A DNA stretch of 64,000 bases, taken from positions 64,001-128,000 of IMG/VR virus record IMGVR_UViG_3300029305_001878. One strand, given 5' to 3'. Below the pieces are notes generated by a model, which made no database searches, was not told the origin of the DNA, and saw nothing but the letters and a program-made list of their open reading frames with translations. The stretch is from a virus (lineage: Duplodnaviria > Heunggongvirae > Uroviricota > Caudoviricetes). Positions 392-49,799 of this stretch are shown here, one piece after another. The translations under genes were made by a program, and so were the position numbers. Within the stretch, counting starts at the first letter, position 1. Each line of letters begins with the position of its first letter.

Positions 392-706
392 TTAACAACC
401 TTTTATATCACAAAAAGTTTGATTAGTAATATCAATAATTTCTTGACCGTAAGTTGCAATTAAATCTGCTACTATTTCTTCGAAATATATATCCATAAGA
501 ATACCATAACTAAACATTGCCGCGTGTACTAATTCGTGACATAAAACTTTTTTAAACATTTCTCTATCTAATGATTCATAAATATAAATAGTTTTATCAA
601 TATCATCACAACATCCAATAGTAACAGAACCATCACTTCGAATTAACGTTGGATGATTGGTAGAAACCAGGATAATTTGCCAATATTCACCATTAATAAC
701 AAACAT
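392..706 (-). CDS. small HExxH metallopeptidase-like protein (ImmA/SprT-like fold?)
   Basis: Intact 104-aa ORF with motif LCHELVHAAM (HExxH). TAA stop at 392-394. Confidence 0.5.
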   Translation of the reverse strand: MFVINGEYWQIILVSTNHPTLIRSDGSVTIGCCDDIDKTIYIYESLDREMFKKVLCHELVHAAMFSYGILMDIYFEEIVADLIATYGQEIIDITNQTFCDIKGC

Positions 707-1254
707 TATTTAACCTAACCGATTTTAGATGCTAAAGCCGAAACTCGTTTTTCAAGATATTGTCTTTCTTCTGGTGAAGCATCTTCAATCATTTCTACCA
801 TATCCTGTGTTAATTCTTGCATATATTTTTCTAATTCTTTAATTTGAGATGCTTTATCTCGATGCATCTCTTTTGATTCCATATAAGTTTTTCTTGTCTA
901 ATGACTGCGGCCTTCGCGTGGGTCACGCATCATCATATCATATTCAGTATAAGAACGATTACTGCCGCCATTTGAAGAACTACTACGACCACTTTGTCCA
1001 GAAGAAGAAGAGGATGAAGAGGAAGGAGTATAATACATTCTACCCTTTTCTCTGTCCATATCTCTTTCATTATACATTGGTTGAGTATAGTAATGATACT
1101 CCTTTTCTTTCTCTTTTCCTTTTTCTTTCATCGCTTCAGTAATAGTGCAATAATACATTGCTTCTTCTAAATCTTTCAACATATCAATTGCTTCTCCAAG
1201 TTCTTTAGCATCAACATCTTTTAAATTACCCATTTGACTTTGAACGCAAGCCAT
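706..1254 (-). CDS. hypothetical Ser-rich/coiled-coil protein with in-frame TAG codons
   Basis: Frame-1 ORF 898..1254 ends at TAG (898-900). The same frame stays open for ~60 more codons (…TRKTYMESKEMHRDKASQIKELEKYMQEL…) through a second TAG (715-717) to TAA at 706-708. The true 5' end may lie further upstream. Confidence 0.35.
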
Positions 1255-1307
1255 TAAGGACTATTTCATCATTTCATATTGACTCATACACATATTAATC
1301 CTCCTTT

Positions 1308-1730
1308 TTATGCCACACGTTCAACAATCAAATTGGCATTCTGAACATTGATTGGTTGAGTACTTACATTTCTTACACTAACGCTCATACAGCAATTGCG
1401 CGGAACATCAATAAATATAGCGCTAAATACATTAAAAAATTCTTCAACGGCTGCAGGAGTAACTATCATAGTAGTTGTTCCAATTGCCTCTCCTTCAATA
1501 GCAATTGCTAAAGAGATTGCTTCAACGGTACCACCAGTAGGAATTGAAATATTGCCGCCGAAACTCACTTTAAAGCGAGCCCGACTTTGGCAATTAGTAA
1601 TTCCTCTTAAAGTAATAAGACCACTACCATCACGATGGACTATGGAGCAATTCCCGCAAGTTACAGTATCAGTAAATTGAACATTCTGATTCACAGGGAC
1701 AACCTGTAATACATTAGCAGTTATTTCCAT
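1308..1730 (-). CDS. hypothetical beta-rich protein (GC-rich, TAG-free)
   Basis: Intact 140-aa ORF, TAA stop, RBS GGAGG upstream. Confidence 0.5.
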   Translation of the reverse strand: MEITANVLQVVPVNQNVQFTDTVTCGNCSIVHRDGSGLITLRGITNCQSRARFKVSFGGNISIPTGGTVEAISLAIAIEGEAIGTTTMIVTPAAVEEFFNVFSAIFIDVPRNCCMSVSVRNVSTQPINVQNANLIVERVA

Positions 1731-1764
1731 TTATTTTCCCTCCAATATAGTGTTTTATTACTTA

Positions 1765-2541
1765 TTAACCAAAATAGTTACTTCCTTCGCAGCATCCGCT
1801 ACTTCTAAAACCATAACCATAAGGACTATAGCAGCAGTTAGGATTTGGTACAAAGTACGCAGGAATTGGGCAAGGATCACTTAATTTACTTACCAAATAG
1901 GCGTTCTGGGCTTGCTGGGAAGCAGCAAATTTTAGTGACTGATTCTCGGCCTGTAAAGCAGAAATTCTATCTTGTGTTAAGAAATCTAAAATAGAACGAA
2001 CACCTGCATTCTGATTATCAATAATATCACGAGTAGAATCGCTAATAACGTGGCGAGTATCACAAGACTGAGTTGCTAAATTATAATTGGTATCAGAGAA
2101 GCCACGTTCAATGGCTCTTTGAGTTCCACAGCAACAGTCGCTTATTTGATGAGATAAACTATTCATTGCCTGCGCTTCTTGGTAGCCTAAAGTACAAATA
2201 GCATTATCAATTCCGTGGAAACCACTCATTAAAGCATTATTTAATGCATAAGTACTATCTGCTAAACCATAAGTCTGCTGGTCTAATTTAGAAATTAAAG
2301 TCTGCTGGTCAACAGCAGCACGCACATCTTCTTGAGTGGCAGGGAGTCCATAACGCATTCCACCACCACCACCAAAACCACTACCGCCGAAGCCCCATCC
2401 GCCGGCAAATAAGAATAATAAAATTATCCACCAACCATTGTCGCCAAATAATCCATCACCATTTCTACTGGAGCCACTGGTGACAGCGGCAATGTCGGCT
2501 AAACTATACATACTATTTCCAAACATTTTCATTTCCTCCAA
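1765..2541 (-). CDS. hypothetical Gly/Cys-rich protein with N-terminal membrane anchor
   Basis: Intact 258-aa ORF with hydrophobic segment WWIILLFLFAGGWGFGG, poly-Gly tract and several CC/CCC motifs. TAA stop. GC-rich. Confidence 0.5.
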   Translation of the reverse strand: MEEMKMFGNSMYSLADIAAVTSGSSRNGDGLFGDNGWWIILLFLFAGGWGFGGSGFGGGGGMRYGLPATQEDVRAAVDQQTLISKLDQQTYGLADSTYALNNALMSGFHGIDNAICTLGYQEAQAMNSLSHQISDCCCGTQRAIERGFSDTNYNLATQSCDTRHVISDSTRDIIDNQNAGVRSILDFLTQDRISALQAENQSLKFAASQQAQNAYLVSKLSDPCPIPAYFVPNPNCCYSPYGYGFRSSGCCEGSNYFG

Positions 2542-2553
2542 TTAATTTAAAAA

Positions 2554-2799
2554 TTATTTAAAACCATATTGGGCTTTAAATTTTGCAAATTCTGTATCGA
2601 AATCTAATCCTCTTTGAGCAACTAAATTTCGAGCAATTTTTTCAATCTCACTCGTTTGTCCAGTCCGTGCGAGATTTAGGAGATTTTCTCCCATTGGGGT
2701 TCCTTTCATTTGATTTTCTAATACACTCATTACTAACTGTTGTGGATTATATCCTTGCTTAATCATCCCAATCAACTAATTGGGGTCTACGTAGAACAT
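2554..2799 (-). CDS. hypothetical protein (81 aa) with TAG at codon 8
   Basis: ATG at 2797-2799 preceded by AAGGAGG (revcomp of 2807-2814). TAG at 2776-2778 lies in frame between the ATG and the body of ORF 2554..2775. TAA at 2554. Confidence 0.55.
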
Positions 2800-2820
2800 T
2801 GGAAGATACCTCCTTTAAAA

Positions 2821-3222
2821 TTAAAATTTAAAAACTGGTTGCGATTGCTGTGCCGCAGGCTATGACATTTCTAATAATTTACCCTCATATGTTTTTATTA
2901 ATTGATTAATTACTTCTTCAAATTCTTCACGGGTAACATAAGAAGAGTCATTAGACTGGTCAGCAGGTTTAATTTGGCTTAATTCGTATAAATTTATACA
3001 AACCGTGCCATCCATATTTATAGATTTAGTATAAATTTTTTTATTTGCTACATCTGGAAAATAAAACACTGAACCATCAAAATCAATAGGAGAGGCTTTC
3101 ACTTCTTCAATAGAAGAAACAGGCCTAACCTATGATATTACTTGAGGATTTATGTTCCAGTTTGTATATGGCTACTATCTATAATTAGGAATAAATTGCT
3201 ATTGCTGATAGGGGTAATTCAT
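2821..3222 (-). CDS. hypothetical protein (133 aa) containing 5 in-frame TAG codons in Gln-rich context
   Basis: ATG 3220-3222 with AGGAGG RBS (3231-3238 revcomp). Frame 1 is open to TAA 2821-2823 and includes ORF 2860..3102. TAGs fall in contexts such as YQQ-TAG-QF and R-TAG-TAG-P. Confidence 0.5.
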
Positions 3223-3362
3223 AAATAGGCGCCTCCTTTACATTTTCATTTTCCTTACCTCTTCATTACTATATAATTTTTAAGTCAAATAAATAAATAA
3301 AAGAAACTCACACATTTTTTGATAAATTTTTCGTTGCTGCGTTTTTAATTAAATTTTTCAAA

Positions 3363-3431
3363 CTCACAATTTTAATTGAAAAAATTTTTCTCACAATTTT
3401 AGTTGATTTTTTCACAAAAATATGTTATAAT
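3363..3431 (+). promoter_or_regulatory. sigma70-like promoter (TTGATT-N17-TATAAT) with two upstream direct repeats CTCACAATTTTA
   Basis: -35 at 3403-3408 and -10 at 3426-3431. Direct repeats at 3363-3374 and 3390-3401. An AAAGGAG RBS precedes ATG 3468. Confidence 0.45.
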
Positions 3432-3467
3432 ATAATAAAATAATAAATAAATAAAAAGGAGAAATCA

Positions 3468-4172
3468 ATGTTATCGATTGCTATTTACAGTGACAATTTA
3501 AATGACGCACGACTTCTTCAATCAAAAATTTAGGATTTTCTTGTAGAGAATAAAATTTTAGCAAAAACTAAAGTATTTGATACAATGGAAAAATTTATTA
3601 CAGTACCTGATACTTTCGATATTTATTTTATGGATATGGACTCAAAAGATGATGTATTAAGCATTGGAAGCCAAATGATAGATATTGACCAACAAAGTTA
3701 TTTTGTATATTGGAGCAGTGATAAAGCATCTGCATATGATGTAACAAAAATTCGTGCAAATTACTTCTTATTAAAACCCATAGAACCTGGAGACTTGGAA
3801 GGTATTATGAATAGTATCAAGAAAAGAATTAAAAAAGATACTGTTATAATAAAAACTCCAGAAGGAGATAGAAGAGTATACACCAATGATTTAAATTATG
3901 TTAATATTGTAAAAAGGTGTACGTGTTATCATTTAGTAGACGGTGCAGTATTTGATGGATAGACACTGCGCGGCGCATTTGAAAAAGAAATATATCCATT
4001 ACAAGAACATCCTAAATTAGCATTTATTCCACCAAGTTTATTAGTTAATATGACAAATATTAAAATATTAAACAAAGAAAGTGCAACTTTTGACAATGAT
4101 GATGTTATATATTTGCCAAAGAAAGCATATGATATCATAAAAAACAAATGGTTTTTATATAACCAAATATAA
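3468..4172 (+). CDS. LytTR-family (AgrA/ComE-like) response-regulator-type transcription factor, with 2 in-frame TAG codons
   Basis: ATG 3468 with a strong SD. The N-terminal region is REC-like (…YFLLKP…). TAG at 3531-3533 and 3960-3962. The C-terminal continuation TLRGAFEKEIYPLQEHPKLAFIPPSLLVNMTNIKILNKE… is a LytTR DNA-binding domain. TAA at 4170-4172. Confidence 0.6.
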
Positions 4173-4214
4173 AAAAAATAAGGCTCGTATCAATTAAGAT
4201 ACGAGCCTTATTTT
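4173..4214. terminator. bidirectional intrinsic terminator
   Basis: aaggctcgtatc…gatacgagcctt hairpin flanked by A-run and T-run. Confidence 0.6.
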
Positions 4215-4604
4215 TTATTTTTTATTAAGATTTACACTTGCTTCAATTTTTTTACTTATATAAGTATCTAAATCTCCAACTACTGTTGCTAAATATTCTT
4301 TAGCATCATCTGTTAGAATTAACATAACCGCGTCGGCTGACTTTTTAAAAGCCTCTTTTTGCGCTTCAATAGTAAATTCGCCTTTACTTTTTAAACTTTC
4401 AACATAAGTTTGATTTGTAGCAATAACGCAATCAGTAATTGTCTTTTCTAATAATGTCATATACTTATCATATTGAGCATTATTAGTTTTTTCTTTTACT
4501 TCTTTCATATGAGTATTTAACCATTTAATAAAATAAGTAGTTAAAACTCCTAACAGAGGTATAATACATACTTCAAAAATTTGAGCAATTAATCCAATTT
4601 CCAT
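4215..4604 (-). CDS. membrane protein with N-terminal TM helix and coiled-coil (holin/XhlA-like?)
   Basis: Intact 129-aa ORF with GGAGG RBS and TAA stop. Hydrophobic N-terminus IAQIFEVCIIPLLGVLTTYF. Confidence 0.4.
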   Translation of the reverse strand: MEIGLIAQIFEVCIIPLLGVLTTYFIKWLNTHMKEVKEKTNNAQYDKYMTLLEKTITDCVIATNQTYVESLKSKGEFTIEAQKEAFKKSADAVMLILTDDAKEYLATVVGDLDTYISKKIEASVNLNKK

Positions 4605-29004: not shown

Positions 29005-30120
29005 TTAGCCAACGAAACTATTTTCGTGTAAGGGTTCATGGAAGGTCTGTGTACGAACCATATCAGTAGACAGAACATCTTCGATGACCTGGATAGCAGC
29101 CATAACTTTCTTGGTGCTATCGAAACGAGTATAGCCGGGGAAAGCGTCAAGAGTAAAGGTGAAGGTTGAGGGGTCACCACTGGAAGCCATAGAGAAGGTG
29201 AAGTTAGACTGTACCTTGCAGTTAGGAATGATAAATTCAGCAGGCAGGTCAACACCGTCTTGGTTACGGAACAGAGTGGAGGCTTCTAAATAGAAGTTGC
29301 CGCCGAAGGATTCAGCAGTAATTTCAATCTGCTTTACGTTGGAAGCCTTTTCAGTATAATAGTCAACCAAGAAAGTAGAAACACCCTGAACGAACATATT
29401 GCTCATTAAATATTCATCATTAATTTCAGTGAGATTATGAATCTTATAATCTTTATCATCCTGATTAACATAATTATATTGAGATTCTTCAGAAGCATCT
29501 TTCTTCATAGGACTCTTTGGCTGAATAGTAATAGCATACTTTTCAGGTAATTTAGTTTCAGAAGCATCTTTAACATTTGCCCACTTGCTACCATCCCAAT
29601 AAACTTCAACAGGGTCAGCAACTACAGGTAAATAAGGTTCAGAAACAACTTCACCATTTCTCATAGCCATAACATAAACGTAAGACTCTTGTTTTAAATA
29701 TGCTCCACCAATCTTGGGTCCCATATAAGGCTTCTGACTTAAATAAATAGTAACGCCAGCAGTCTTATCTTCAGGGTTATAAGCAAAATCAGTAGTAGTT
29801 TCAGTAACGTGCTGCTTAATGGTGTTAGAAGAGTCGGCTTCAATCAGACCTGCGCCGGCCAGAATCATCAGACCTTCAGGAGAAATCAGAGCATCTTCCA
29901 TAGTGAAAGTTAAGGTCTTTTCGCCGTCCCAGGAAACTAAACGAGCATTGCCGCGTCCGCCCTGTGCATAAACAGTGGTAGAAGCGCCTTCTAAAGTAGA
30001 AGTCTTTAAAGTATCGAAATACATAACGGGTTCATCTTTATAAAAGATTTTATGGCCAATTTTCATAGGAGCCTTGGCTTTTAATACGACGTCGCATATT
30101 TCGCGAATACCATATTTCAT
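29005..30120 (-). CDS. major tail (tube/sheath-class) structural protein (371 aa), GC-rich, TAG-free
   Basis: Intact ORF with AGGAGG RBS and TAA stop. Positioned between the neck genes and the chaperone/TMP genes. Codon-optimised appearance. Confidence 0.4.
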   Translation of the reverse strand: MKYGIREICDVVLKAKAPMKIGHKIFYKDEPVMYFDTLKTSTLEGASTTVYAQGGRGNARLVSWDGEKTLTFTMEDALISPEGLMILAGAGLIEADSSNTIKQHVTETTTDFAYNPEDKTAGVTIYLSQKPYMGPKIGGAYLKQESYVYVMAMRNGEVVSEPYLPVVADPVEVYWDGSKWANVKDASETKLPEKYAITIQPKSPMKKDASEESQYNYVNQDDKDYKIHNLTEINDEYLMSNMFVQGVSTFLVDYYTEKASNVKQIEITAESFGGNFYLEASTLFRNQDGVDLPAEFIIPNCKVQSNFTFSMASSGDPSTFTFTLDAFPGYTRFDSTKKVMAAIQVIEDVLSTDMVRTQTFHEPLHENSFVG

Positions 30121-33327: not shown

Positions 33328-33897
33328 TTATTCAGCCTTACTTACTACATTATATTTAGTAGTGGTTCTGCGGCGAGTAGGAGCCTCTTCAGTCTTAACA
33401 CGACGTTCGAAAGCCGCAGGTTCGATTTGTCCAGCCTTACTTTCAGCCTTTTCTGCTTCTAAATTCTTTAAAGCAGTATCAACGTCAAATCCAGTCTTTT
33501 CTTTTAAAGCATTGCGCTTATCATAATCCATCAAAGGGACTGAAACCGCAAATTGCTTTAATAAATCAATTACTCCAATAGGAGCAAAATCTAAACAATC
33601 TAAAAATGCATCTAAAGAGCCATTTTTAATCAAATTAACAATATCTGCTTCGCTCATATAGTATTCATTTTCAGGTTGAATGTTTAATTCTTGGATTGCA
33701 GCATTTTCAGTAATTTGTAAAAAATTACGCATTAAAGTAGTACCGCCTTGTTGATAACTTAATTTTAAAAGTTCAACACAAGGAATTCTTTTAGTTTCAC
33801 CAGGCTGAAATTCTCTACGAATACCATCTTCTCTGATATTATAAACAACCATACTGGAACTTCTATTCTTTACATTGACAATTCTATTTTCATTCAT
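33328..33897 (-). CDS. hypothetical head protein (189 aa), GC-rich, TAG-free
   Basis: Intact ORF with TAA stop, immediately downstream of the capsid gene. Confidence 0.45.
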   Translation of the reverse strand: MNENRIVNVKNRSSSMVVYNIREDGIRREFQPGETKRIPCVELLKLSYQQGGTTLMRNFLQITENAAIQELNIQPENEYYMSEADIVNLIKNGSLDAFLDCLDFAPIGVIDLLKQFAVSVPLMDYDKRNALKEKTGFDVDTALKNLEAEKAESKAGQIEPAAFERRVKTEEAPTRRRTTTKYNVVSKAE

Positions 33898-33982
33898 TTC
33901 AATAATCTCCTTTTACTCAAAAACAATAAGGGGATGGGGAAATCCCCATCCCCAAATAAAATATATATTTAGTTAATTAAAA

Positions 33983-35122
33983 TTAGCCTTGAACGTCTCC
34001 GCCATCAACATCATCTTGAGAACCAGTGATGTTACCTGCGTAGTCACGAACATAACCAGTTACACCGTCTAAATGCCAGGTGACCATATCACCCAGTAAT
34101 TCGGTGTCACAGTAGCAGCAAATGTTGTTAGCCAGCATTGCTAAAACGCCAACCTTCTTGTAAACGTGGATTTCACGAGACCAGTCATAGTTGTTATCGC
34201 GTTCAGCAACTAAAGTGCCGCCTTCAAAAGCGATCTTAACAGGCTTGCTGTCAGCGCAGGAAGGAATAATCCAGCAATAACCGGGATCAATAACCTTGCG
34301 GCTATTGGTTCCATCTTCGAAGCCCTGCTCTAAAATAACAACCTTATGGCCCTTATAAGAAGCCAGACGACCAGTTCTCCACAATTCATCCTTCATTGCT
34401 TCAGTATAACGCCAAGCATCTTTGGGAATCATACGGACAGCAAATTCATAAGTACAATAAATAGTAGGAGTACCATAAGCGCCAGCAATCATCAGTAACT
34501 TGTCGAAAGCAGCCTCATCGAAACCATTAGTAGCAACACGGTTTGCAGGAGGTAACTGATTAATAGAAGCCTTCAGAGCAGCAGCAACTTCTTTATAAAT
34601 CAGTTCATCCATACCTTCCATAACAATGCGAGTGACAACAGAGAAGTCAACACGACCATCAAGGAATTCTTCGAAGCCGATTTGAGCGGCGCCGCCAATA
34701 GCACTAGTAGGTACCATAAAGGATTCTTCGCCAGCACTTAACTTAAATACTTCATAAACACCTGCTAAACCAATGCGAGTAACGAACTGCTTTGCACGAT
34801 GGTTGGAGCCGAGTTTTCTGCGGAAGACAGCACGGTCACCCTGTGCGAAAGTCTTAACTTCAGCAAACTGGGCATACTGTTCTTCAACTTTCTTAGGAAG
34901 AACTTCATTTAAAGTTTCTTCAATAATAGAGAAAATCAGGTTCTTATTTTCACGATATAATGCATAAGTACCTGCTAATTCATTAAATTCCTGACGTAAA
35001 GTCTCATTTAAAGCCTCGTAAGACAGAGACTGTCCATCAAAACTGTAAGCAACAGGAGCAGAAGGGTCAGCCTTTGCGACCTGTTTGGCAAGAGCAACTA
35101 AATTATTTCTATCTAAAGCCAT
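33983..35122 (-). CDS. major capsid protein (HK97-fold class, 379 aa), GC-rich, TAG-free
   Basis: Intact ORF with AAGGAGAG RBS and TAA stop. The ~380-aa size and its position after the scaffold gene are typical of HK97-type MCPs. Confidence 0.5.
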   Translation of the reverse strand: MALDRNNLVALAKQVAKADPSAPVAYSFDGQSLSYEALNETLRQEFNELAGTYALYRENKNLIFSIIEETLNEVLPKKVEEQYAQFAEVKTFAQGDRAVFRRKLGSNHRAKQFVTRIGLAGVYEVFKLSAGEESFMVPTSAIGGAAQIGFEEFLDGRVDFSVVTRIVMEGMDELIYKEVAAALKASINQLPPANRVATNGFDEAAFDKLLMIAGAYGTPTIYCTYEFAVRMIPKDAWRYTEAMKDELWRTGRLASYKGHKVVILEQGFEDGTNSRKVIDPGYCWIIPSCADSKPVKIAFEGGTLVAERDNNYDWSREIHVYKKVGVLAMLANNICCYCDTELLGDMVTWHLDGVTGYVRDYAGNITGSQDDVDGGDVQG

Positions 35123-35140
35123 TTTTCTTCTCTCCTTTCA

Positions 35141-35938
35141 TTAAGCGATACGCATTAATTTAACACCGCGCTGATGGTCGGGCATAGTATAAACTTTAAC
35201 AACCTGCCACTGGATAGAGCCATCGCCGGACTTGCTTAAAATACCATCAGCAGCACGAGGACTTAAAACGTCACCGACTACTAATTCTTTTTCCATAACC
35301 ATATTAGTGGTAAATAAATCACCAGGCATAGTCTTTAATACACGAGGAACCATAACAGTGCCTTCGGGCATTCTCTTTTCTCTATAAGGTCCTTCAATAT
35401 GGAAAGGATCTTCATTATAATGTAATTCATAAGGATCGGTAGCAGCAGGAGCAGTAACCTTATCGAAAGGATAAACCTTACCATTTAATTCAATAGAACT
35501 ATTGCCTTCTGCGTCGACGCCATTATAATATCTGGTCTGACGGTCCCAAGCAGTATCTAAATCAGCAGTGGGATTGCCATCCTTATCAACACCATAGCCA
35601 AATGGACTATAGATACGAGCGTTGTAATTGTGCTTTAACATAGCAAATTCGCAATCCATCTGCATTGGGTCACGATATAACTTAATTTCATTAAAGACCA
35701 TCATCCACTCGCCTGCGCCAGTGAAGTTAACAACACCATTAGCATAGTCATACTTAACGAACTGACCTTGCTCTAAAATCTGAATATCTTTATTAGCAGG
35801 TAACTGTGCATAAACCTGACCATTGCGCTGTGCACTTAAATGGTTGGGTTCTACCTGACCGAAACCATAATCAACATATCCGCCAGCGGCTTTAGAAGCC
35901 TGGGAGACGAAATGCTGACCAATGAAATCTTTTAGCAT
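35141..35938 (-). CDS. second abundant head protein (265 aa; decoration or capsid-associated), GC-rich, TAG-free
   Basis: Intact ORF with AGGAGG RBS and TAA stop. Confidence 0.4.
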   Translation of the reverse strand: MLKDFIGQHFVSQASKAAGGYVDYGFGQVEPNHLSAQRNGQVYAQLPANKDIQILEQGQFVKYDYANGVVNFTGAGEWMMVFNEIKLYRDPMQMDCEFAMLKHNYNARIYSPFGYGVDKDGNPTADLDTAWDRQTRYYNGVDAEGNSSIELNGKVYPFDKVTAPAATDPYELHYNEDPFHIEGPYREKRMPEGTVMVPRVLKTMPGDLFTTNMVMEKELVVGDVLSPRAADGILSKSGDGSIQWQVVKVYTMPDHQRGVKLMRIA

Positions 35939-43500: not shown

Positions 43501-43519
43501 TTATTCGCCTCCCAATCTA

Positions 43520-43600
43520 TGGTTATTTTATCACAAAAAAATAGAAATGTCAAATTTTACGTTGACTTTTTTTAGAAAAAATGTTATAATATTTGTATAA
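43520..43600. promoter_or_regulatory. divergent promoter pair at the module boundary
   Basis: Minus strand: TTGACA-N17-TAAAAT (read from ~43560 leftward). Plus strand: TTGACT-N17-TATAAT (43566-43596), feeding gene 43624. Confidence 0.45.
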
Positions 43601-43623: not shown

Positions 43624-44055
43624 ATGTTTTTTTTAATTGCGGTTTTTATACTTTTATTGTTAGGTATAATTTTATATAATATAGATAAAATAGTCTATGA
43701 AGAAATAGAAATAGATGCGGTTTATGGTGAAGTAATATATGGAAATGAGTTTAAAAAGATTGTTATAGATTTAACAAAATTGCCCAAAGACAAAATAGTA
43801 GGAGTCACGTATTTTGTAAAAGAGGACGAGCAATCTATGACAGATAAAATCGCAAACGGCATTTTGAATACTTTAGAAAAAGAATATAACTATAAATTTA
43901 ATGCTGAAGATAGGATAGGGGCTTTAGCAGAAATTAAAAGTTTTAAAAAAGTATCCGCTCCTAAATTATTTTATATGAAAAATGCGGTTTTATTATAGAA
44001 TCGTTTTACAAAAAGATATGTTTTGGAAGGAGAAACTAGAGAATGGACCCAGTAA
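43624..44055 (+). CDS. membrane protein (N-terminal TM), with TAG at 43996 read through to TAA 44053
   Basis: ORF 43624..43998 ends in TAG, and the frame continues for 19 codons. If TAG is a stop here, the gene ends at 43998 instead. Confidence 0.4.
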
Positions 44056-44246
44056 TTGGCCTTTTATGGTGCATTATGGCTCTCTTAATTGGAACGCAAT
44101 ACGCGCAAGTATGTGCTGGATTAAAATGGTATATGGCAATATTTGTATGTGTAATATTTTTTGTATGCGCTCCTGCGTTTATTATTGTACAAATTGCTGA
44201 AGCAATACTCGATGCTATTTTACCGGAAGGATGGGATGAGCAATGA
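44043..44246 (+). CDS. small two-TM membrane protein (67 aa)
   Basis: GAAGGAG RBS and an intact ORF. Hydrophobic segments. TGA stop overlaps the next ATG (ATGA). Confidence 0.45.
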   Translation: MDPVIGLLWCIMALLIGTQYAQVCAGLKWYMAIFVCVIFFVCAPAFIIVQIAEAILDAILPEGWDEQ

Positions 44247-44629
44247 AAAAACCATATGCAATAATTGAAGTAGGTATAGATAGTGGGCGATTGGCTTATT
44301 TTGAAGATGACCACCCTGAAATATGGTATAATTCTGATATCTACTGGTTTAATAAAAGAGATGAAATGAGCGAGGAAGAATATTAGGAATATCATTTTAC
44401 TATTTATGATTTGACTAAATATTATGATGAAGTTTTTGTTTGCAGTTTTCGTTCAGTTTTAAGATTTGTTGAAGGCGAAGAAAATCCGATAGTGGTGGAT
44501 AGTTTATCAAGACGTGGTGTTGCAGTGCGTTATGGTACTGAAGATACAAAGATTATTCTTAATCCTATGAAAGAACCTTATAAGTCACCTTATGAGGATG
44601 ATGATGAAGAAGAAAACAGTTGTTGTTGA
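44243..44629 (+). CDS. hypothetical protein (128 codons) with in-frame TAG at 44384
   Basis: ATG 44243 is in the same frame as ORF 44411..44629, which has only a TTG pseudo-start. They are separated only by TAG. Confidence 0.45.
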
Positions 44630-44894
44630 GGTTGGTGTATGGGCAGATAGATTAACCTATTTTGCCCAAAACCACCATATTTTAGAAACTGCAGATTTTA
44701 GAACGTTTCCCTCATCTTATAGAATGACGAAAGCGCAAGAAGATGAGTATTATGAATTTTGTAAAAAAATAGATGATGAATATGTTGAACAATATATCTG
44801 TAAACCGCAATATATTTATCATATTTGTTTTAAAGAAGGATATGATTGTACCTATTCTTGTGGAGAAATAGTATGGCAAAGAGATGGTGGTTAA
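44598..44894 (+). CDS. hypothetical Cys-containing protein
   Basis: ORF 44592..44894 with TAA stop. Confidence 0.35.
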   Translation: MMMKKKTVVVEVGVWADRLTYFAQNHHILETADFRTFPSSYRMTKAQEDEYYEFCKKIDDEYVEQYICKPQYIYHICFKEGYDCTYSCGEIVWQRDGG

Positions 44895-45558
44895 TTACAG
44901 AAGGATATCAGGATGATTTTAGAGAGGAATGGCGAAAAGCGCATCCTAATGAATAGACTCCTGGATATCGATTATATAAATTGCGCGCAAAACAGTATCG
45001 CCAAGGAGAACATGAATATAATGGGGTTAAAGTTCCTTGTACTTTTCTTGATCCATTAAGTGAAGAAGATTTAAAATTAGAAAAAGAACTCGAAAAAGCG
45101 CAAGCAGATTATAGACTTCAAGAAGAGTTGTATATTGTTGATAGGGTTTATAGTGAAATTGGCTGGGAAGAGTTTTTATTAGATAGAGATAACTGTTATT
45201 ACAGGGATATGATAAAAGTTTTAACTGATTATTATATCCCATGTGGGAGCGCAGACGCACAATGTAGTTTTAATTGTCCAGTATATGGGGTGTGTAAAGG
45301 CAATGTCGAGGAAATGTAGAAACGTAAAGAAACAATTATCGAAAAGTTTGTGGCGGCAGGACTTAAAAATGAAGTATTTGTACCCGAGCAAGGAAGATAA
45401 TTGGGAAGTTTTTCAAAGAGTTGCTAATGGTGGTGGCTATTATTGTCCCAGAGATAGACATAGTATATTTGATATTATATATGATATTGTAGATAAACAT
45501 TTAAATGGATTAGAATGCGAGCATAGTATAGATGGAATAAAGGAGTTATATTTCAAGA

Positions 45559-45870
45559 ATGGCTAAGAAGATTTATAAATATGAACTTGGGGTCGATGGC
45601 GGTATAGTCACTATTAAGAATTGTTTTAGTAGGATTATTAAAGTAATGGCGCAAAATGGTTGGCCCTACATTTGGATGGAGATTGATGAAGAAAACTATG
45701 ATGAAAGTGAAATTAATATCACCGCCATTGGGACTGGATGGGACTACGATGATGATGCCGGCGTCTATGTTGATTCTGTTATTGATAGAAGCGGCTATGT
45801 ATGGCATTACTTTGTGGATAATCCCATGTTTTTAAGTAAACAAGAAAAAAGTAGATGGAATAGTATTTAA
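45559..45870 (+). CDS. hypothetical acidic protein (103 aa)
   Basis: AAGGAG RBS, intact ORF and TAA stop. A strong terminator follows downstream. Confidence 0.5.
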   Translation: MAKKIYKYELGVDGGIVTIKNCFSRIIKVMAQNGWPYIWMEIDEENYDESEINITAIGTGWDYDDDAGVYVDSVIDRSGYVWHYFVDNPMFLSKQEKSRWNSI

Positions 45871-45967
45871 GTTATCAAAAAGCTATGAATAATTTATTTA
45901 CTGGTGGATATGTGGAAAATGGTAGTAGTGGAATCTTAATAAAAGAGCCGAACATAATCCTATAACG

Positions 45968-46000
45968 GTCTCGTGGGTGTGTGCCCACGAGATTTTTTTA
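45968..46000 (+). terminator. intrinsic terminator ending the 43.6-45.9 kb plus-strand module
   Basis: ctcgtgggtgtgtgcccacgag hairpin plus T7. Confidence 0.6.
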
Positions 46001-46297
46001 TCGTTATTCGAAATTTAAAATAATTTCTCGTAATCCGAAATCTAAAAATGATTTCAAGATTGTTTTGGTCAGGCGAAAGACTTTAACACATTAAAGAAAA
46101 AAATTTTCACGAAACCCACCCCCCCCTGTATCTGAAAAAACTATACAAAAAGTATTGACAATATTTCAGAAAAAACTATGCTTCCTTTCACCTAGCACCC
46201 CTATCAATCAGCGGCGCGTCCAGGGGCCACACGCGCCGAATTTCAATAGTTTAAACGATTTCCCACTTTTCTTTAACGAATTAAAGTGCTAAAGTCA

Positions 46298-46485
46298 AAC
46301 AAACGTTTTTCCCGAATCCGCACTTCATTTGACTAAATCGTTAAAGAATACACTAAAAACTAAAACAAACGATTTTCCCGATTCCAAACTTCATTTGACT
46401 AAATCGCTAAAGAATACGCTAATTATTAAAACAAACGATTCTCCCCTTTTTCTTTATTTGACTAAATCGTTAAAGTCGCGCACGA
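46298..46485. repeat. about 63-bp tandem repeat x3 (core TTCATTTGACTAAATCGYTAAAG) in a ~1-kb non-coding region
   Basis: Units at about 46298-46364, 46365-46430 and 46431-46485. The listed ORF 46329..46586 is just a translation of this repeat. Confidence 0.6.
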
Positions 46486-46582
46486 GCCTTGAGTGCCCTA
46501 ACTTTAGCGAATTAAAGTGCTACAGCAATAAATCGCTAAAGCGTTTGCAGGAAAACTTGCAAAAAAATTTTCCTAAAACCTC

Positions 46583-46698
46583 TTGACAAAAAGCGCACGA
46601 TGTGATACAATAAAGACAGTTAAGAGAGGTACACAAAATAAAAAAAAGAAAAAAAAATAAAAAAAACTCTTGACAAAGTAAACACCATTTGATATAAT
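46583..46698 (+). promoter_or_regulatory. two tandem consensus sigma70 promoters plus the start of a ~150-nt T-poor purine-rich leader
   Basis: TTGACA 46583-88 with TACAAT 46606-11. TTGACA 46670-75 with TATAAT 46693-98. Both have 17-nt spacers. Confidence 0.55.
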
Positions 46699-46857
46699 AA
46701 AGACAGATAAAAGAGATGAGCCAAGGCGGACGAAGTAAGCGAGAGCCGAACCAAGAACGCAAGGTAAAAACAAGACAGGATGTGCCGAGAGTGAGAGGGC
46801 AAAGCCTAAGATGCACAAAGCCACTTGTTGCTCACCAAATGAAAGGAAGTAATTACT

Positions 46858-47235
46858 ATGATGCATACTATTAACGAACTGTACAAAATCGATGGCGCAA
46901 AGTTCTACACCGCCGACTACATCATCAAGCACAACATCCCCAAGGCTAAGTCTTATAATGACACTAATGGCTGGAGCAAGTGTTATGGTTTGGGAACAGA
47001 CAGAGGCACAAAGAACATTCACACTGCTGATGGTGTAAAGGTTGTCTACACCTACGGTGAAAAGACCTACTTTGACACAGCAGAAGAGAGAGATGCCTAC
47101 AGAGTACAGCAGAACATCGCAAGGGCAGAACTTAACAAAAAGAACAAACTGCTCAAGGCTATCAACAGCCATTATCAGACTATGAGCGTTGAAGAACTTG
47201 AGGAAGTGCTAAACAACATCAAAGAGAGAGGTTGA
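46858..47235 (+). CDS. early hypothetical protein (125 aa)
   Basis: AAAGGAAG RBS. TGA stop lies inside a terminator hairpin (gagagagg…cctctctc). Confidence 0.55.
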   Translation: MMHTINELYKIDGAKFYTADYIIKHNIPKAKSYNDTNGWSKCYGLGTDRGTKNIHTADGVKVVYTYGEKTYFDTAEERDAYRVQQNIARAELNKKNKLLKAINSHYQTMSVEELEEVLNNIKERG

Positions 47236-47424
47236 TAAAAACCTCTCTCTTTCTTTGTCTGCGTGAGCGGTCGCCGCACTCCTAAATTCACTACGCTAAA
47301 GTGCTAAACAAATAAAGAGAGAAAAAATATGTAAAAAAAAATAAAAAAAATTTTCCCAAAACTATTGACAAATCCAGAAGTAAATGATATAATAAAGACA
47401 CAAAGAACAAAGGAGAGATACACA

Positions 47425-47664
47425 ATGTATACTATCACCGACACAATGGCAAGACACATCGAATACATCAAGCAGAGCGCAAAGAACTGCGCACTCTATC
47501 TGCGCAAGGACGCTATGGATATTCTGCTCGACAAGGCTTTTCACGCTTACCTTTTTGTATGCTGTGCAAACAACAAGTCTGTTGACTTCACACCTGCTGA
47601 ATTTATCCAGGAGTGCAAGGCAAATGAAAACTTCTTCAATTACTATCTGGCTTACGCTGAATAA
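47425..47664 (+). CDS. early hypothetical protein (79 aa)
   Basis: Promoter TTGACA 47365-70 / TATAAT 47388-93, AAAGGAGAG RBS and ATG 47425. TAA plus hairpin terminator. Confidence 0.55.
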   Translation: MYTITDTMARHIEYIKQSAKNCALYLRKDAMDILLDKAFHAYLFVCCANNKSVDFTPAEFIQECKANENFFNYYLAYAE

Positions 47665-48031
47665 GAGAGTGTGAAAAACACTCTCTTTTCTTTTGTCAGC
47701 GTGATCGGCCACCACAGCCCATACTTCACCCAATTAAAGTGCTAAACAAATAAAGAGAAGAAAAATATGCGGAAAAATAGTTAAAAAAATTTCCTGAAAC
47801 CCCTTGACAACAAGACCATCTTGTGATATACTTAATACATCCAATAGAGAAAGGAACACGAACTATGAAGAAACTAATTCTCGATATCATTACTATTATT
47901 GCGCGATCTGCTTGACTTGGGTTGCGTGGTCTTTCGTGGACATTGTCAGCGATAACTGCGACCCCAATCCACAACACGCAAACATCAATGCTTTTGTGCT
48001 ACTGGTTGATTAAGAAAGAGAGGTAAAAAAA

Positions 48032-48466
48032 ATGAAAGAAATGCTTTTCATCCTTGGTTGTGTATTTGTTACGGTCTTGTTCTTCGCTGCAATCATTTTC
48101 TTCACTGATAGGATTACTGGATGGTACTATGATAATCGGAATAAGAAGCGTGAAAAAGAACATCCTGAATTGTACAAGTTGTTTGATGCGGTCAATGAAA
48201 AATGCAGAGATTGTTGCCGTTGGTATAATGAACAGATTGCACCCAAGAAAAGAGAGATTGACAACATTCTCAAAGATTGGAATTATTACACTAATGAAAG
48301 AAGAGCGCAAAAAGAAGCAGAATTGAAGAAATTGCGCGCAGACCTTCAAATCGCTGAAACAATCGACAAAACTTTGGAAAGTGAACTTGTTGAACTGCGG
48401 GAGCAAACAAAGGACTATGTAAAAGAACATAATGTTGAATGGGCAAAGAAAATGGGCTGGACTTGA
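48032..48466 (+). CDS. early membrane-anchored coiled-coil protein (144 aa)
   Basis: AGAGAGG RBS. N-terminal TM helix FILGCVFVTVLFFAAIIFF. TGA inside hairpin atgggctgg…cagcccat. Confidence 0.5.
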   Translation: MKEMLFILGCVFVTVLFFAAIIFFTDRITGWYYDNRNKKREKEHPELYKLFDAVNEKCRDCCRWYNEQIAPKKREIDNILKDWNYYTNERRAQKEAELKKLRADLQIAETIDKTLESELVELREQTKDYVKEHNVEWAKKMGWT

Positions 48467-48623
48467 CAGCCCATTTTTTTCGTAGTCGGTCACTGACCCC
48501 GGAACTTCAGCGAACTAAAGTGCTAAAGAAAAATAATTGCAAAATATTGAAAAATAGTTGTTGACAAATGCTTCCTAATAGTGTATACTATAGACAGATA
48601 GAAAAGCAAAGGAGATAATAAAA

Positions 48624-48821
48624 ATGATGGATTACAGACACAGCGCATACAATATCTACACCGGCGAGATTATCAACTGCGAGAAGCCCAACTACTTGAA
48701 GCGACAGGTTGCCTACACCGGCAAGGTCAACAAGGACTATTTCAATACCAATAAAGGTGGTTGGAGATGGTCACACGACTTCGGCAAGAAGTGGGAAAGC
48801 GAAGGTTTTCCGACTAAGTGA
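48624..48821 (+). CDS. early small protein (65 aa)
   Basis: Promoter TTGACA ~48562, AAAGGAGA RBS, TGA and a terminator (aaaagggga…tcccctttttt). Confidence 0.5.
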   Translation: MMDYRHSAYNIYTGEIINCEKPNYLKRQVAYTGKVNKDYFNTNKGGWRWSHDFGKKWESEGFPTK

Positions 48822-48922
48822 AAAAGGGGATAAAAAAAATCCCCTTTTTTCTAAAAAAGGTATTGACAAATCAATCAATTGGGTGTATAATAAAGACAGA
48901 TAAAAGAAAGGGGAACACCAAA

Positions 48923-49078
48923 ATGAAAAACAACTACTTCGACACTCTCAACTGGAACTACATCGAAACCTGCGCCGAAGCAGGCATTTCCGTAGACTGC
49001 TACATCGATGATAGCCGCACTTGGATGAAGCAGATCTGGAATGATGGATTTGTAGAAATCCACGAAATTGGGGCTTGA
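48923..49078 (+). CDS. early small protein (51 aa)
   Basis: Promoter TTGACA ~48853 / TATAAT, AAAGGGGAA RBS and ATG 48923. The TGA stop lies inside the ggggcTTGACAaaagcccc hairpin, which is also the next promoter's -35. Confidence 0.45.
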   Translation: MKNNYFDTLNWNYIETCAEAGISVDCYIDDSRTWMKQIWNDGFVEIHEIGA

Positions 49079-49127
49079 CAAAAGCCCCAAGGTATGATAT
49101 ACTTAATACAACAAATAAAGAAAGGAA

Positions 49128-49433: not shown

Positions 49434-49492
49434 CAACTTCAACCCTTTATGCTATAATAAAACCATCCAATAGAGAAAGGAAATAAATAAAA

Positions 49493-49708: not shown

Positions 49709-49799
49709 GCGAGGGGAAACCCTCGCTTCTTTTTTTCTAAATTAAAAAATTACCTATTGACAAATTTATAAAAATATGATATAATATATATATAAAAAA

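What the first reader, a model, noticed from the sequence alone, without database searches (positions are those of the whole stretch)
3363..4172. Phage-encoded LytTR (AgrA-like) regulator with upstream direct repeats, an orphan quorum-sensing-type output domain
Gene 3468..4172 is the only plus-strand gene at the far end of the late module. It encodes a REC-like N-domain (with degenerate acidic pocket SD…DMD…YFLLKP) and a LytTR DNA-binding domain. The promoter is preceded by two CTCACAATTTTA direct repeats 27 bp apart, the kind of architecture LytTR proteins bind. No cognate histidine kinase or AgrBD-like genes are in the window. It may respond to a host-made signal or be constitutively active, and could couple lysis-lysogeny or late functions to host quorum state. 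It also needs TAG suppression to be made full-length.
Basis: partly seen in the sequence, partly recalled or inferred. Interest (0 to 1): 0.5.

Follow-up and report, generated by a model that had tools for sequence, protein, structure and literature searches.

The report
Divergent phage LytTR response regulator
A large gut-type phage that reads the TAG stop codon as glutamine carries its own two-domain gene switch, of the AgrA/ComE bacterial type but with no partner sensor kinase, next to repeated DNA boxes it probably binds; this is a divergent example of a known kind of regulator, not a new kind.

Summary
Gene 3468..4172 (+) is real. It has two in-frame TAG codons, both at near-invariant Gln positions in homologues. 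The two CTCACAATTTTA copies sit at 3363 and 3390.

The protein gets no Pfam or NCBIfam hit on its own. Three other lines identify it as REC + LytTR:
- An AlphaFold model (pLDDT 90.6) best matches full-length ComE and the AgrA LytTR domain.
- Of the distant relatives recovered with its C-domain profile and sampled, 40 of 52 carry Pfam LytTR.
- A widened C-domain profile hits only LytTR domains in the PDB.

It is a divergent, apparently phage-only clade:
- The FhRhHRS hallmark is replaced by FLFLPPS.
- The first acidic-pocket residue is Ser.
- No kinase lies in the window or within 10 kb in eight related loci.
- No relative turned up in 185,579 bacterial and archaeal species genomes.

The repeats belong to a conserved array of TCACA boxes. 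Their period is 27-28 bp, and a final 21-bp pair flanks the -35 of a near-consensus promoter. In relatives that lack the gene, the holin and a six-gene late cassette are adjacent and co-directional, so the regulator and its divergent promoter region look like an insertion.

Most likely it is a code-gated late regulator that autoregulates and controls that cassette. A quorum-sensing or lysogeny role is unsupported. Phage REC-LytTR proteins are already catalogued. Interest is moderate.

The parts
3468..4172 (+). Regulator gene, 234 aa, stop TAA. Translated with TAG = Gln.
   Evidence: There are 109 homologue clusters, mostly 234-242 aa and full length.
3468..3839 (+). Receiver (REC) domain, residues 1-124. 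Key residues: S8-D9, D51, D56 (acceptor position), S83, K103-P104.
   Evidence: AF2 gives a five-fold beta/alpha pattern. PF00072 is found in 47 of 51 family members, best 1.2e-9. The profile hits the LytR receiver 6m8o at 1.1e-8 with D56 aligned to the 'LDV' Asp.
3840..4169 (+). Divergent LytTR DNA-binding domain, residues 125-234 (all-beta core plus a C-terminal helix). It carries LAFIPPS (184-190) in place of FhRhHRS.
   Evidence: Foldseek: ComE 4cbv at 5e-12, AgrA LytTR 4g4k at 1.9e-6 with TM 0.77. 40 of 52 distant relatives carry PF04397. Profile A5 hits 3d6w, 3bs1 and 4cbv only.
3531..3533 (+). In-frame TAG, codon 22, read as Gln.
3960..3962 (+). In-frame TAG, codon 165, read as Gln.
3403..3431 (+). 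Sigma-70-type promoter of the regulator: -35 TTGATT (3403-3408), 17-nt spacer, TG-extended -10 TATAAT (3426-3431).
   Evidence: Both hexamers are nearly invariant in 11 related loci.
3388..3396 (+). Box P1, TTCTCACAA, abutting the -35.
3409..3417 (+). Box P2, TTTTCACAA, in the promoter spacer, 21 bp from P1 (9 + 12 + 9 layout).
   Evidence: consensus TTnTCACAA-N12-TTGTCACAA in 9-10 of 11 loci. The exact pair TCACAA-N15-TCACAA is unique in the window.
3361..3369 (+). Box M2, AACTCACAA, 27 bp upstream of P1.
3305..3313 (+). Distal box D, AACTCACAC, 56 bp upstream of M2, next to the divergent cassette promoter region. A degenerate copy lies between D and M2, near 3335.
   Evidence: 'ACTCACA' or a close variant is present at this position in all 11 aligned loci and in L094.
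3265..3277 (-). Conserved element ATTACTATATAAT in the leader or promoter of the divergent cassette.
   Evidence: Conserved in 9 of 11 loci. Also present in relatives that lack the regulator.
4173..4216 (.). Bidirectional hairpin terminator (19-bp stem) shared by the regulator gene and the convergent late operon.
4215..4604 (-). Holin, the last gene of the long late operon, convergent with the regulator.
   Evidence: phrog_13712 holin at 1.5e-29.
392..3222 (-). Divergently transcribed six-gene late cassette, the putative target. Genes: 2821-3222, 2554-2799, 1765-2532, 1308-1730, 706-1293, 392-706.
   Evidence: Synteny is conserved. All six are PHROGs of unknown function or unmatched. 1308-1730 has a BclA-CTD/ExsF/TNF-like fold. 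392-706 is HExxH peptidase-like.

Best explanation
Gene 3468..4172 encodes a phage-borne, kinase-less, divergent member of the REC-LytTR response-regulator superfamily (the AgrA/ComE/LytR type).

Shown:
- The fold and homology.
- TAG = Gln in this gene.
- A near-consensus sigma-70 promoter.
- A conserved array of TCACA-type direct-repeat boxes between this gene and a divergently transcribed six-gene late cassette.
- Relatives without the regulator have the holin and the cassette adjacent on one strand.

Inferred:
1. The mRNA can be made by host RNA polymerase, but full-length protein appears only once the phage's TAG-to-Gln decoding is active. The protein is therefore a late-phase factor.
2. 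It binds the TCACA boxes as a dimer or higher oligomer.
3. The 21-bp pair that straddles its own -35 gives negative autoregulation.
4. The distal conserved box lies at about -46 to -51 of the cassette promoter region, which lacks a good -35. That box and the 27-28-bp array let the protein control the cassette, which its insertion has cut off from the late operon.
5. The acidic pocket is incomplete and no kinase is present. Activity is probably independent of phosphorylation, or depends on a host phosphodonor, rather than on a dedicated quorum-sensing kinase.
For: Identity:
- AF2 model with pLDDT 90.6.
- Foldseek: full-length ComE 4cbv at E = 5e-12 over 255 columns, and AgrA LytTR 4g4k/4xqj at about 2e-6 with TM 0.77.
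- REC HMM in 47 of 51 family members. Profile against the PDB: 6m8o (LytR receiver) at 1.1e-8.
- The C-domain profile finds 570 representatives. Of 52 sampled, 40 carry PF04397 and 35 carry PF00072.
- Profile A4 hits ComE over residues 2-233 at 4.4e-16.
- Profile A5 hits only LytTR domains.

Code gating:
- TAG at conserved Gln positions.
- 10 of 12 homologous genes carry 1-5 in-frame TAG codons.
- The window is recoded as a whole.

Cis elements:
-.
- The same layout, a 27-29-bp period followed by a final 21-bp step, is seen in a clade whose regulator is only 40% identical.

Insertion and target:
-.

No kinase:
- (Pfam of neighbours within 10 kb).

Analogy:
- AgrA binds pairs of direct repeats in the intergenic region between the divergent P2 and P3 promoters (PMC4227749).
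Against: - No binding experiment exists. Assigning the boxes to this protein rests on proximity, conservation and analogy.
- The hallmark DNA-contact motif FhRhHRS (AgrA R198, N201 and S202 contact DNA, PMC4227749) is L-A-F-I-P-P-S here, with only the Ser kept. DNA recognition may therefore differ from AgrA or be weakened.
- The dominant 27-28-bp spacing is not the canonical 21-22 bp.
- The P2 box is absent from the L094 clade.
- Box similarity within pairs is modest in several loci: 4-6 of 9 positions in L004, L006, L009 and L010.
- The exact 12-mer repeat alone has p of about 0.04.
- The cassette has a conserved leader element even in phages without the regulator, so it may not need this protein.
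- Only 64 kb of a probably 120-190 kb genome was visible, so a kinase elsewhere cannot be excluded.
Confidence: 0.55

Rival explanations
1. It is a true signal-responsive regulator. A host AgrC/ComD/LytS-type kinase, or acetyl phosphate, phosphorylates D56, so phage late functions or lysis timing follow host density or membrane state.
For: - D56 is kept in 49 of 51 sequences, K103 in 46 of 51 and P104 in 51 of 51.
- The receiver is closest to the LytR and MrkE receivers.
- The gene sits next to the holin, which recalls LytSR control of holin-like lrgAB. That link is recalled from memory and was not tested.
Against: - The first acidic residue is Ser in 37 of 51 sequences. The second is Asp in only 28 of 51. 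The T/S position is Gly in 15 of 51.
- The nearest outgroups lack the acceptor Asp altogether.
- No kinase lies in the window or in the flanks of eight loci.
- No prophage copies or bacterial relatives were found.
- The holin is convergent with the gene, not downstream of its promoter.
Confidence: 0.2
2. The repeats are not this protein's operators. They could be UP-element-like A/T tracts, leftovers of tandem duplication of the promoter, or sites for another factor. The regulator would then act elsewhere, for example on host LytTR-controlled genes.
For: - Each 27-bp unit contains a TTGA -35-like segment, as promoter duplication would leave.
- The exact repeat has p of about 0.04 only.
- No further box clusters exist in the 64-kb window, so no regulon can be seen.
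- The DNA-contact motif is altered.
Against: - The boxes are conserved in position and core sequence in loci whose regulators are 40-76% identical, while surrounding intergenic sequence diverges.
- The promoter spacer is conserved, which promoters alone do not require.
- CTCACANNTTT is unique to this region.
Confidence: 0.25
3. It is a decoy or anti-regulator. With a crippled DNA-contact loop and a pseudo-receiver, it would pair with or titrate host LytTR regulators, or their kinases, instead of binding DNA itself.
For: - FhRhHRS is replaced by FLFLPPS, with P189 invariant.
- The acidic pocket is degenerate.
Against: - Other basic residues of the LytTR domain are invariant or nearly so: R135, R136, K149, R150, K219. 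R150 and K219 fall at or beside AgrA DNA-contact loops.
- Conserved boxes lie next to the gene.
Confidence: 0.08

Closest known systems
ComE of Streptococcus pneumoniae (PDB 4cbv), full-length REC-LytTR response regulator
   Same: - Same two-domain architecture and length.
- Best structural match, E = 5e-12, and a profile match over the whole length at 4.4e-16.
- ComE binds 9-bp direct repeats with a 12-bp spacer (from memory). That layout is also present here at 3388-3417.
   Different: - ComE has a cognate kinase, ComD, and a peptide signal. Neither is seen here.
- Sequence identity is about 15-17%.
- The hallmark HRS-type motif is absent here.
- The box pair here straddles the -35 of a strong promoter instead of lying upstream of a weak one.
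AgrA of Staphylococcus aureus (LytTR domain, PDB 3bs1/4g4k)
   Same: - LytTR fold, TM 0.77 and rmsd 2.7, with a profile hit at 1.3e-5.
- Direct-repeat sites in an intergenic region between two divergent promoters, one of which drives the regulator's own gene (PMC4227749).
   Different: - AgrA FFRCHNS (R198, N201 and S202 contact DNA) corresponds to LAFIPPS here.
- AgrA-dependent promoters have over-long spacers of 18 and 20 nt. The promoter here has the optimal 17 nt and a TG-extended -10.
- No AgrB, AgrD or AgrC genes are present.
- The main box period is 27-28 bp.
LytR of S. aureus (receiver PDB 6m8o), LytSR system controlling holin-like lrgAB
   Same: - The receiver is the best sequence-profile match.
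- The gene neighbours a holin.
   Different: - No LytS kinase is present.
- The phage holin (phrog_13712) is convergent with the gene and belongs to the late operon.
- Regulation of the holin by this protein is not indicated.
Catalogued phage LytTR proteins: A0A8S5S4H7 'Response regulator' (Siphoviridae sp. ctiV651), and stand-alone LytTR proteins of Pseudomonas phage PMBT3, Brevibacillus phage Davies and Myoviridae sp. ctshb19
   Same: - Phage-encoded.
- A0A8S5S4H7 matches over 242 columns at E = 7.5e-15.
- Reviews already note phage LytTR proteins as possible AgrA analogues (PMC11945551).
   Different: - About 15% identity.
- The present clade is unannotated (phrog_8810, 'unknown function') and invisible to Pfam.
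- It sits in TAG-recoded phages of about 120-190 kb at a fixed position between the holin and the late cassette.
- None of these proteins has been characterised experimentally, to my knowledge.

Membership tests
REC-LytTR response regulators (AgrA/ComE/LytR/AlgR type) | N-terminal CheY-like receiver fold | tested here: met
   AF2 gives a five-fold beta/alpha pattern. Foldseek matches many receiver domains. PF00072 is found in 47 of 51 family members, although not in this protein scanned on its own.
REC-LytTR response regulators (AgrA/ComE/LytR/AlgR type) | Phospho-acceptor Asp at the end of beta-3, plus T/S at beta-4 and K at beta-5 | tested here: met
   D56, S83 and K103-P104 are present. D56 aligns with the 'LDV' Asp of the LytR receiver 6m8o. 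Family counts: D56 in 49 of 51, S83 in 34 of 51, K103 in 46 of 51.
REC-LytTR response regulators (AgrA/ComE/LytR/AlgR type) | Complete acidic Mg2+-binding pair after beta-1 (DD or ED) | tested here: not met
   The window protein has S8-D9. In the family, position 8 is Ser in 37 and Asp in 8 sequences. Position 9 is Asp in 28 and Asn in 12.
REC-LytTR response regulators (AgrA/ComE/LytR/AlgR type) | C-terminal LytTR fold | tested here: met
   AgrA LytTR 4g4k at E = 1.9e-6 with TM 0.77, and ComE full length. Profile A5 hits only LytTR domains.
REC-LytTR response regulators (AgrA/ComE/LytR/AlgR type) | Pfam PF04397 match at or above threshold | tested here: not met
   No Pfam family at E <= 1 for this protein or its close family. 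Among sampled distant relatives 40 of 52 match, so the homology is transitive.
REC-LytTR response regulators (AgrA/ComE/LytR/AlgR type) | Conserved FhRhHRS DNA-contact motif (PMC4227749) | tested here: not met
   The aligned segment is L184-A-F186-I-P188-P189-S190. F186 and P189 are invariant and S190 is present in 50 of 51.
REC-LytTR response regulators (AgrA/ComE/LytR/AlgR type) | Cognate histidine kinase encoded beside the regulator | tested here: not met
   None in the window. None within 10 kb in L005-L012 according to the Pfam hits of the called genes. The rest of the genome was not visible.
REC-LytTR response regulators (AgrA/ComE/LytR/AlgR type) | Binds paired 9-bp direct repeats about 21 bp apart near target promoters | tested here: inconclusive
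   A candidate pair at 3388-3396 and 3409-3417 is conserved in 9-10 of 11 loci. The dominant period of the array is 27-28 bp. Binding itself cannot be tested with these tools.
agr-type quorum-sensing locus | AgrB processing protein, AgrD peptide precursor and AgrC kinase | tested here: not met
   No credible multi-pass membrane protein and no kinase G-box were found in the window. The only ORFs with three or more hydrophobic segments lie at 46.5-48.4 kb and look like wrong-strand artefacts in an A-rich region. Neighbours in related loci are all structural, replication or unknown proteins.
LytTR regulatory systems (stand-alone LytTR plus membrane inhibitor, HdrRM/BrsRM type) | LytTR protein without a receiver, co-transcribed with a small membrane inhibitor | tested here: not met
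   A receiver domain is present. The gene is monocistronic, lying between its promoter and a terminator.
Code-15 (TAG = Gln) recoded phage late genes (Borges et al. preprint, 10.1101/2021.08.26.457843) | In-frame TAG at positions that are Gln in homologues, in a phage whose structural and lysis genes are recoded | tested here: met
   A suppressor tRNA was not found in the window.

The most novel reading that the evidence does not exclude
The regulator would be a translationally code-gated timer. Host polymerase transcribes it from a strong promoter from the start of infection, but it is completed only after the switch to TAG = Gln decoding. It then oligomerises on a 27/54-bp-periodic box array, shuts off its own promoter, and switches on a separately controlled late cassette. 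That cassette encodes exosporium-like surface proteins with a BclA/ExsF fold. The receiver would act as a phosphorylation-independent oligomerisation module. This would be the first described link between stop-codon recoding and a dedicated phage transcription factor.
Probability: 0.2. Interest if true: 0.55.

Novelty: new variant of a known kind. Interest (0 to 1): 0.38.

Why it matters
It assigns a fold and a likely role to a protein family so far labelled 'unknown function': phrog_8810, with 109 clusters at 90% identity. Standard domain searches miss this family.

It also shows a concrete case where a phage transcription factor is itself subject to stop-codon recoding. If the protein controls the adjacent late cassette, it offers a small, testable circuit of one protein and about 130 bp of DNA. 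That circuit could be used to study how recoded phages time late gene expression, and how far a LytTR domain can drift (HRS to PPS) and still find DNA.

It does not currently provide evidence that phages listen to host quorum signals.

Tried and rejected
1. Direct Pfam and NCBIfam scans of the protein gave nothing at E <= 1. The close-family C-domain profile (A3) against the PDB also gave nothing at E <= 10. Only the widened profile (A5), fold comparison and transitive searches worked.

2. A second candidate operator at 43510-43536 (TCCCAA-N15-TCACAA) was rejected. It is the reverse complement of the TG-extended -10 of the minus-strand late-operon promoter, TTGACA-17-TGTGATAAAAT. It is conserved as such in 17 relatives.

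3. A 21-bp tandem repeat at 57088-57164 (TTCACTCAT...) was considered as a LytTR array. It is a triplicated T-tail of a hairpin terminator in a convergent gap, so there is no reason to link it to the regulator.

4. Searches for the 12-mer and for the extended promoter/operator elsewhere in the window showed no enrichment. No regulon is visible.

5. GenBank phages hold only three distant hits, on unannotated fragments. GTDB species genomes hold none. No host or prophage context could be obtained.

6. TRF does not call the 27-bp array. The units are too degenerate.

7. Function of the cassette proteins: Pfam, NCBIfam and PDB sequence searches were uninformative. Only the fold of protein 1308-1730 was informative.

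8. Assignment to one of the named recoded-phage clades (for example Agate) was considered but not tested.
Full report
**1. The observation**

The ORF runs from ATG 3468 to TAA 4170-4172, which is 234 codons. GGAG lies 6 nt upstream of the ATG. It contains two in-frame TAG codons, at 3531-3533 and 3960-3962.

The window as a whole is a TAG-recoded phage. Keeping TAG open raises the total length of ORFs of at least 150 aa from 7,645 to 18,544 residues. It also yields a continuous minus-strand late module from about 0.7 to 43.5 kb, including a 2,878-aa protein with 52 in-frame TAG codons.

A search of 5.8 billion proteins found 109 homologue clusters, almost all full length at 234-242 aa. In a 51-sequence alignment both TAG positions fall on near-invariant Gln: Q22 in at least 90% of sequences and Q165 in 50 of 51. 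phrog_8810 ('unknown function') matches residues 3-227 in one stretch. The two 'halves' are therefore one gene and TAG is read as Gln.

Ten of twelve homologous genes that I fetched carry one to five in-frame TAG codons, at varying Gln positions. Recoding of this gene is thus general in the clade but not position-specific.

They extend to 16/17 identity.

**2. What the protein is**

Scanned on its own, it matches no Pfam or NCBIfam model at E <= 1. Three independent lines nevertheless establish a receiver plus LytTR architecture.

- (a) Family-level sequence evidence for the receiver. PF00072 is detected in 47 of 51 close homologues. A family profile hits the S. aureus LytR receiver 6m8o at 1.1e-8, with D56 aligned to the acceptor-position Asp and K103-P104 aligned to the conserved K-P.
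- (b) Structure. An AlphaFold2 model of P0001, which is 99% identical to the window protein, has mean pLDDT 90.6. It shows a five-fold beta/alpha domain (residues 1-124) followed by an all-beta domain and a terminal helix. Foldseek against the PDB ranks full-length ComE first (4cbv, E = 5e-12, 255 columns). It also finds the isolated AgrA LytTR domain (4g4k/4xqj, E about 2e-6, target TM 0.77, rmsd 2.7).
- (c) Transitive homology. A profile of the C-terminal domain alone finds 570 representatives among 1.84 billion proteins. Of 52 sampled across the E-value range, 40 carry Pfam LytTR (best 1e-11) and 35 carry Response_reg (best 5e-38). The widened full-length profile aligns with ComE over residues 2-233 at 4.4e-16. 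A widened C-domain profile hits only LytTR domains in the whole PDB: 3d6w at 1.3e-9, AgrA 3bs1 at 1.3e-5 and ComE at 1.8e-4.

**3. How it departs from the canonical family**

The most conserved LytTR motif is FhRhHRS. In AgrA this is FFRCHNS, residues 196-202, where R198, N201 and S202 touch DNA (PMC4227749). The alignment places it on L184-A-F186-I-P188-P189-S190. In the phage clade this segment is FLFLPPS, with F186 and P189 invariant, so only the Ser is retained. This explains why Pfam is blind to the domain. It also means that DNA recognition, if retained, uses a modified surface. Other basic residues are invariant or nearly so (R135, R136, K149, R150, K219). R150 and K219 fall at or beside the AgrA loops that carry H169/R170 and R233. 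Those AgrA contact residues are recalled from memory and were not checked here.

In the receiver, the acceptor-position Asp (49 of 51), the beta-5 Lys (46 of 51) and the following Pro (51 of 51) are kept. The acidic pair is degenerate, with position 8 Ser in 37 of 51 and position 9 Asp in only 28 of 51. The T/S position is Gly in 15 of 51. The nearest outgroups of the clade often lack the acceptor Asp altogether. This drift is typical of receivers that no longer depend on phosphorylation. That is an inference, not a measurement.

**4. Kinase and other agr components**

No ORF in the window has a kinase-type G1/G2 box. The only ORFs with three or more hydrophobic segments, at 46.5-48.4 kb, look like wrong-strand artefacts in an A-rich region. 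In eight related loci with 10-kb flanks, the called genes and their precomputed Pfam hits show three groups:
- a replication module (DnaE, guanylate kinase, NrdD, NrdG, dUTPase, RuvC);
- small proteins of unknown function;
- large tail-fibre-like proteins.

None is a kinase.

A scan of one genome for each of 185,579 bacterial and archaeal species found no relative of the protein. GenBank phages hold only three distant hits on unannotated fragments. As far as can be seen, the clade is confined to uncultured phages whose contigs reach about 120-190 kb. Only 64 kb of this genome is visible, so 'orphan' is provisional.

**5. The DNA in front of the gene**

The promoter is close to consensus: TTGATT (3403-3408), 17 nt, then TGnTATAAT (3426-3431). 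Both hexamers are nearly invariant in 11 related loci.

| Box | Sequence | Coordinates |
|---|---|---|
| D | AACTCACAC | 3305-3313 |
| (degenerate copy) | - | about 3335 |
| M2 | AACTCACAA | 3361-3369 |
| P1 | TTCTCACAA | 3388-3396 |
| P2 | TTTTCACAA | 3409-3417 |

Start-to-start spacings are 56 bp (that is, 28 + 28), then 27, then 21 bp.

Evidence that this is more than chance:
- CTCACA occurs 9 times on both strands of the window, 3 of them here. CTCACANNTTT occurs only here.
- The exact pair TCACAA-N15-TCACAA is unique in the window.
- An exact repeat of at least 12 nt appears in 3.9% of shuffles of this AT-rich region. The repeat alone would therefore be weak evidence.

Conservation is the stronger argument. 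Box D, or a close variant, is present at this position in all 11 aligned loci. P1 and P2 fit TTnTCACAA-N12-TTGTCACAA in 9-10 of 11 loci, with the -35 inside the 12-nt spacer.

In a clade whose regulator is only 40% identical (L093-L095), there are five boxes at -114, -85, -58, -31 and -10 from the -35. Their spacings are 29, 27, 27 and 21 bp, and TCACAAT alternates with TCTCAAA. Autocorrelation peaks at 27 and 54 bp in both clades.

So a 27-28-bp period ending in a 21-bp step is a family trait. The 21-bp step is the canonical LytTR geometry of two 9-bp boxes with a 12-bp spacer, which is recalled from memory for ComE and AgrA. PMC4227749 confirms that AgrA binds pairs of direct repeats in the intergenic region between divergent P2 and P3. 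The 27-bp period is not canonical.

**6. Genomic logic**

The gene is monocistronic. It converges on a 19-bp-stem bidirectional terminator (4173-4216) shared with the last gene of the late operon. That gene is a holin (4215-4604, phrog_13712 at 1.5e-29).

Upstream and divergent lies a six-gene cassette (392-3222, minus strand). Its order and sizes are conserved in every related locus. Protein families give no function for it. There are two partial exceptions:
- The last gene is an HExxH peptidase-like protein.
- The 140-aa protein 1308-1730 models (pLDDT 84) as a BclA C-terminal domain / ExsFA / BxpB / TNF-C1q jelly roll. This fold is also used at phage fibre tips.

That 140-aa protein is very widespread, with at least 7,992 clusters and 329 IMG/VR loci. 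Only 3 of the 80 fetched loci contain the regulator. In relatives without it (L100, L104) the order is tail fibres, then holin, then cassette, all on one strand. Only terminator-like hairpins and a short gap lie between holin and cassette.

The regulator and its box-filled divergent promoter region therefore look like an insertion between holin and cassette. The cassette's own promoter region in the window lacks a recognisable -35. Box D lies at about -46 to -51 from the start site I infer from the TATAGT at 3273-3268. This placement is uncertain, because the ATTACTATATAAT element is also conserved in regulator-less relatives, where it appears to lie in the leader.

**7. Most likely mechanism**

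Shown:
- a divergent REC-LytTR protein;
- TAG-dependent completion;
- a strong sigma-70 promoter;
- a conserved array of direct-repeat boxes between two divergent transcription units;
- insertion between holin and cassette.

Inferred:
- The protein accumulates only once TAG is decoded, in the late phase. This is consistent with the recoding model of the Borges et al. preprint.
- It binds the boxes.
- The P1/P2 pair across the -35 of a promoter that needs no activator gives negative autoregulation. AgrA-dependent promoters, by contrast, have over-long 18- and 20-nt spacers.
- The distal boxes govern the cassette.
- The receiver probably serves oligomerisation rather than kinase-driven switching.

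I put the identity at about 0.9 and the full mechanism at about 0.55.

**8. Rivals**

- A host-kinase or quorum-responsive regulator remains possible, because D56, S83 and K103 are kept. It is disfavoured by the degenerate acidic pair, the lack of any kinase, the trend among outgroups and the absence of any lysogeny signal.
- The boxes may belong to another factor or be remnants of duplication.
- The protein may be a non-DNA-binding decoy.

Each is listed with its refuting experiment.

**9. Novelty**

Phage-encoded LytTR proteins are already on record:
- BFVD holds a full-length viral REC-LytTR 'Response regulator' (A0A8S5S4H7, E = 7.5e-15 to this model) and several stand-alone viral LytTR proteins.
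- Reviews mention phage LytTR proteins as possible AgrA analogues (PMC11945551; PMC3901668, listed).

What is new is modest:
- an unannotated, Pfam-invisible clade with a rewritten DNA-contact motif;
- a fixed insertion site between the holin and a late cassette;
- a 27/54-bp box array;
- translation gated by stop-codon recoding.

I rate it a new variant of a known kind, with interest about 0.38.

Noticed in passing
window 44000-57000: An early-type region with GC 0.38-0.42 against about 0.28 elsewhere, A-rich on the + strand, containing only short ORFs. It holds at least 10 near-consensus promoters (CTTGACAA-17-TGnTATAAT, each preceded by an A-rich tract), for example at 46582, 46669, 47364, 47803, 48862, 49074, 49429, 49756, 54322, 56344, 56437 and 56508.
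   Followed up: partly
window 46267-46480, 49815-49900, 50620-51045, 53805-53845: Two further repeat families. 'CATTTGACTAAATCGCTAAAG' has at least 10 copies, including inverted ones. 'TTTGTGCATTTTGACGAA' has 6 copies, several of which form perfect or near-perfect inverted pairs (50026/50531, 50937/51018). They look like operator arrays for some other regulator of the early region.
   Followed up: no
window 57055-57164: A strong hairpin terminator (GGGTAGGTGT...ACACCTACCC) whose tail 'CACTCATTTTTTTTATTTATT' is repeated 3.6 times in tandem with a 21-bp period. It lies in a gap between convergent genes.
   Followed up: partly
window 1308-1730 (-): A 140-aa protein (phrog_20016, unknown function) models as a BclA C-terminal / ExsFA / BxpB / TNF-C1q jelly roll (pLDDT 84, Foldseek E = 7e-7). 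The family has at least 7,992 clusters at 90% identity and occurs in phages of about 40 kb as well as about 190 kb. Its cassette neighbours are Gly/Cys-rich and Q/N/Y-rich, reminiscent of spore-surface proteins.
   Followed up: partly
window 43527-43600: Divergent promoter pair at the far end of the late module. The minus-strand late-operon promoter is TTGACA-17-TGTGATAAAAT. The plus-strand promoter, TTGACT-17-TGTTATAAT, serves a small membrane protein (43624-44055). The minus-strand promoter is conserved in 17 IMG/VR relatives.
   Followed up: yes
window 1-64000: No tRNA gene was detected (ARAGORN), and no Rfam family reached its gathering score, although hundreds of in-frame TAG codons must be decoded. 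The suppressor tRNA or other decoding factor must lie outside this window or be non-canonical. 'GACAGGTTCAAGTCTT' near 52.6 kb resembles a T-arm, but nothing was called there.
   Followed up: partly
window 29005-30120, 33328-35938 (-): Four late structural-module genes, including the probable major capsid gene at 33983-35122, contain no in-frame TAG and lie in a locally GC-richer stretch (up to 0.416). Their neighbours carry 2-10 TAG codons each. Recoding is uneven within the late module.
   Followed up: no
window 3265-3277; L094, L100, L104 equivalents: The element ATTACTATATAAT (on the gene strand, roughly TyATATAnyTAtGAA) lies 20-35 nt upstream of the first cassette gene. It is conserved both in phages with the regulator and in those without it. 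It may be a leader element rather than a -10.
   Followed up: partly
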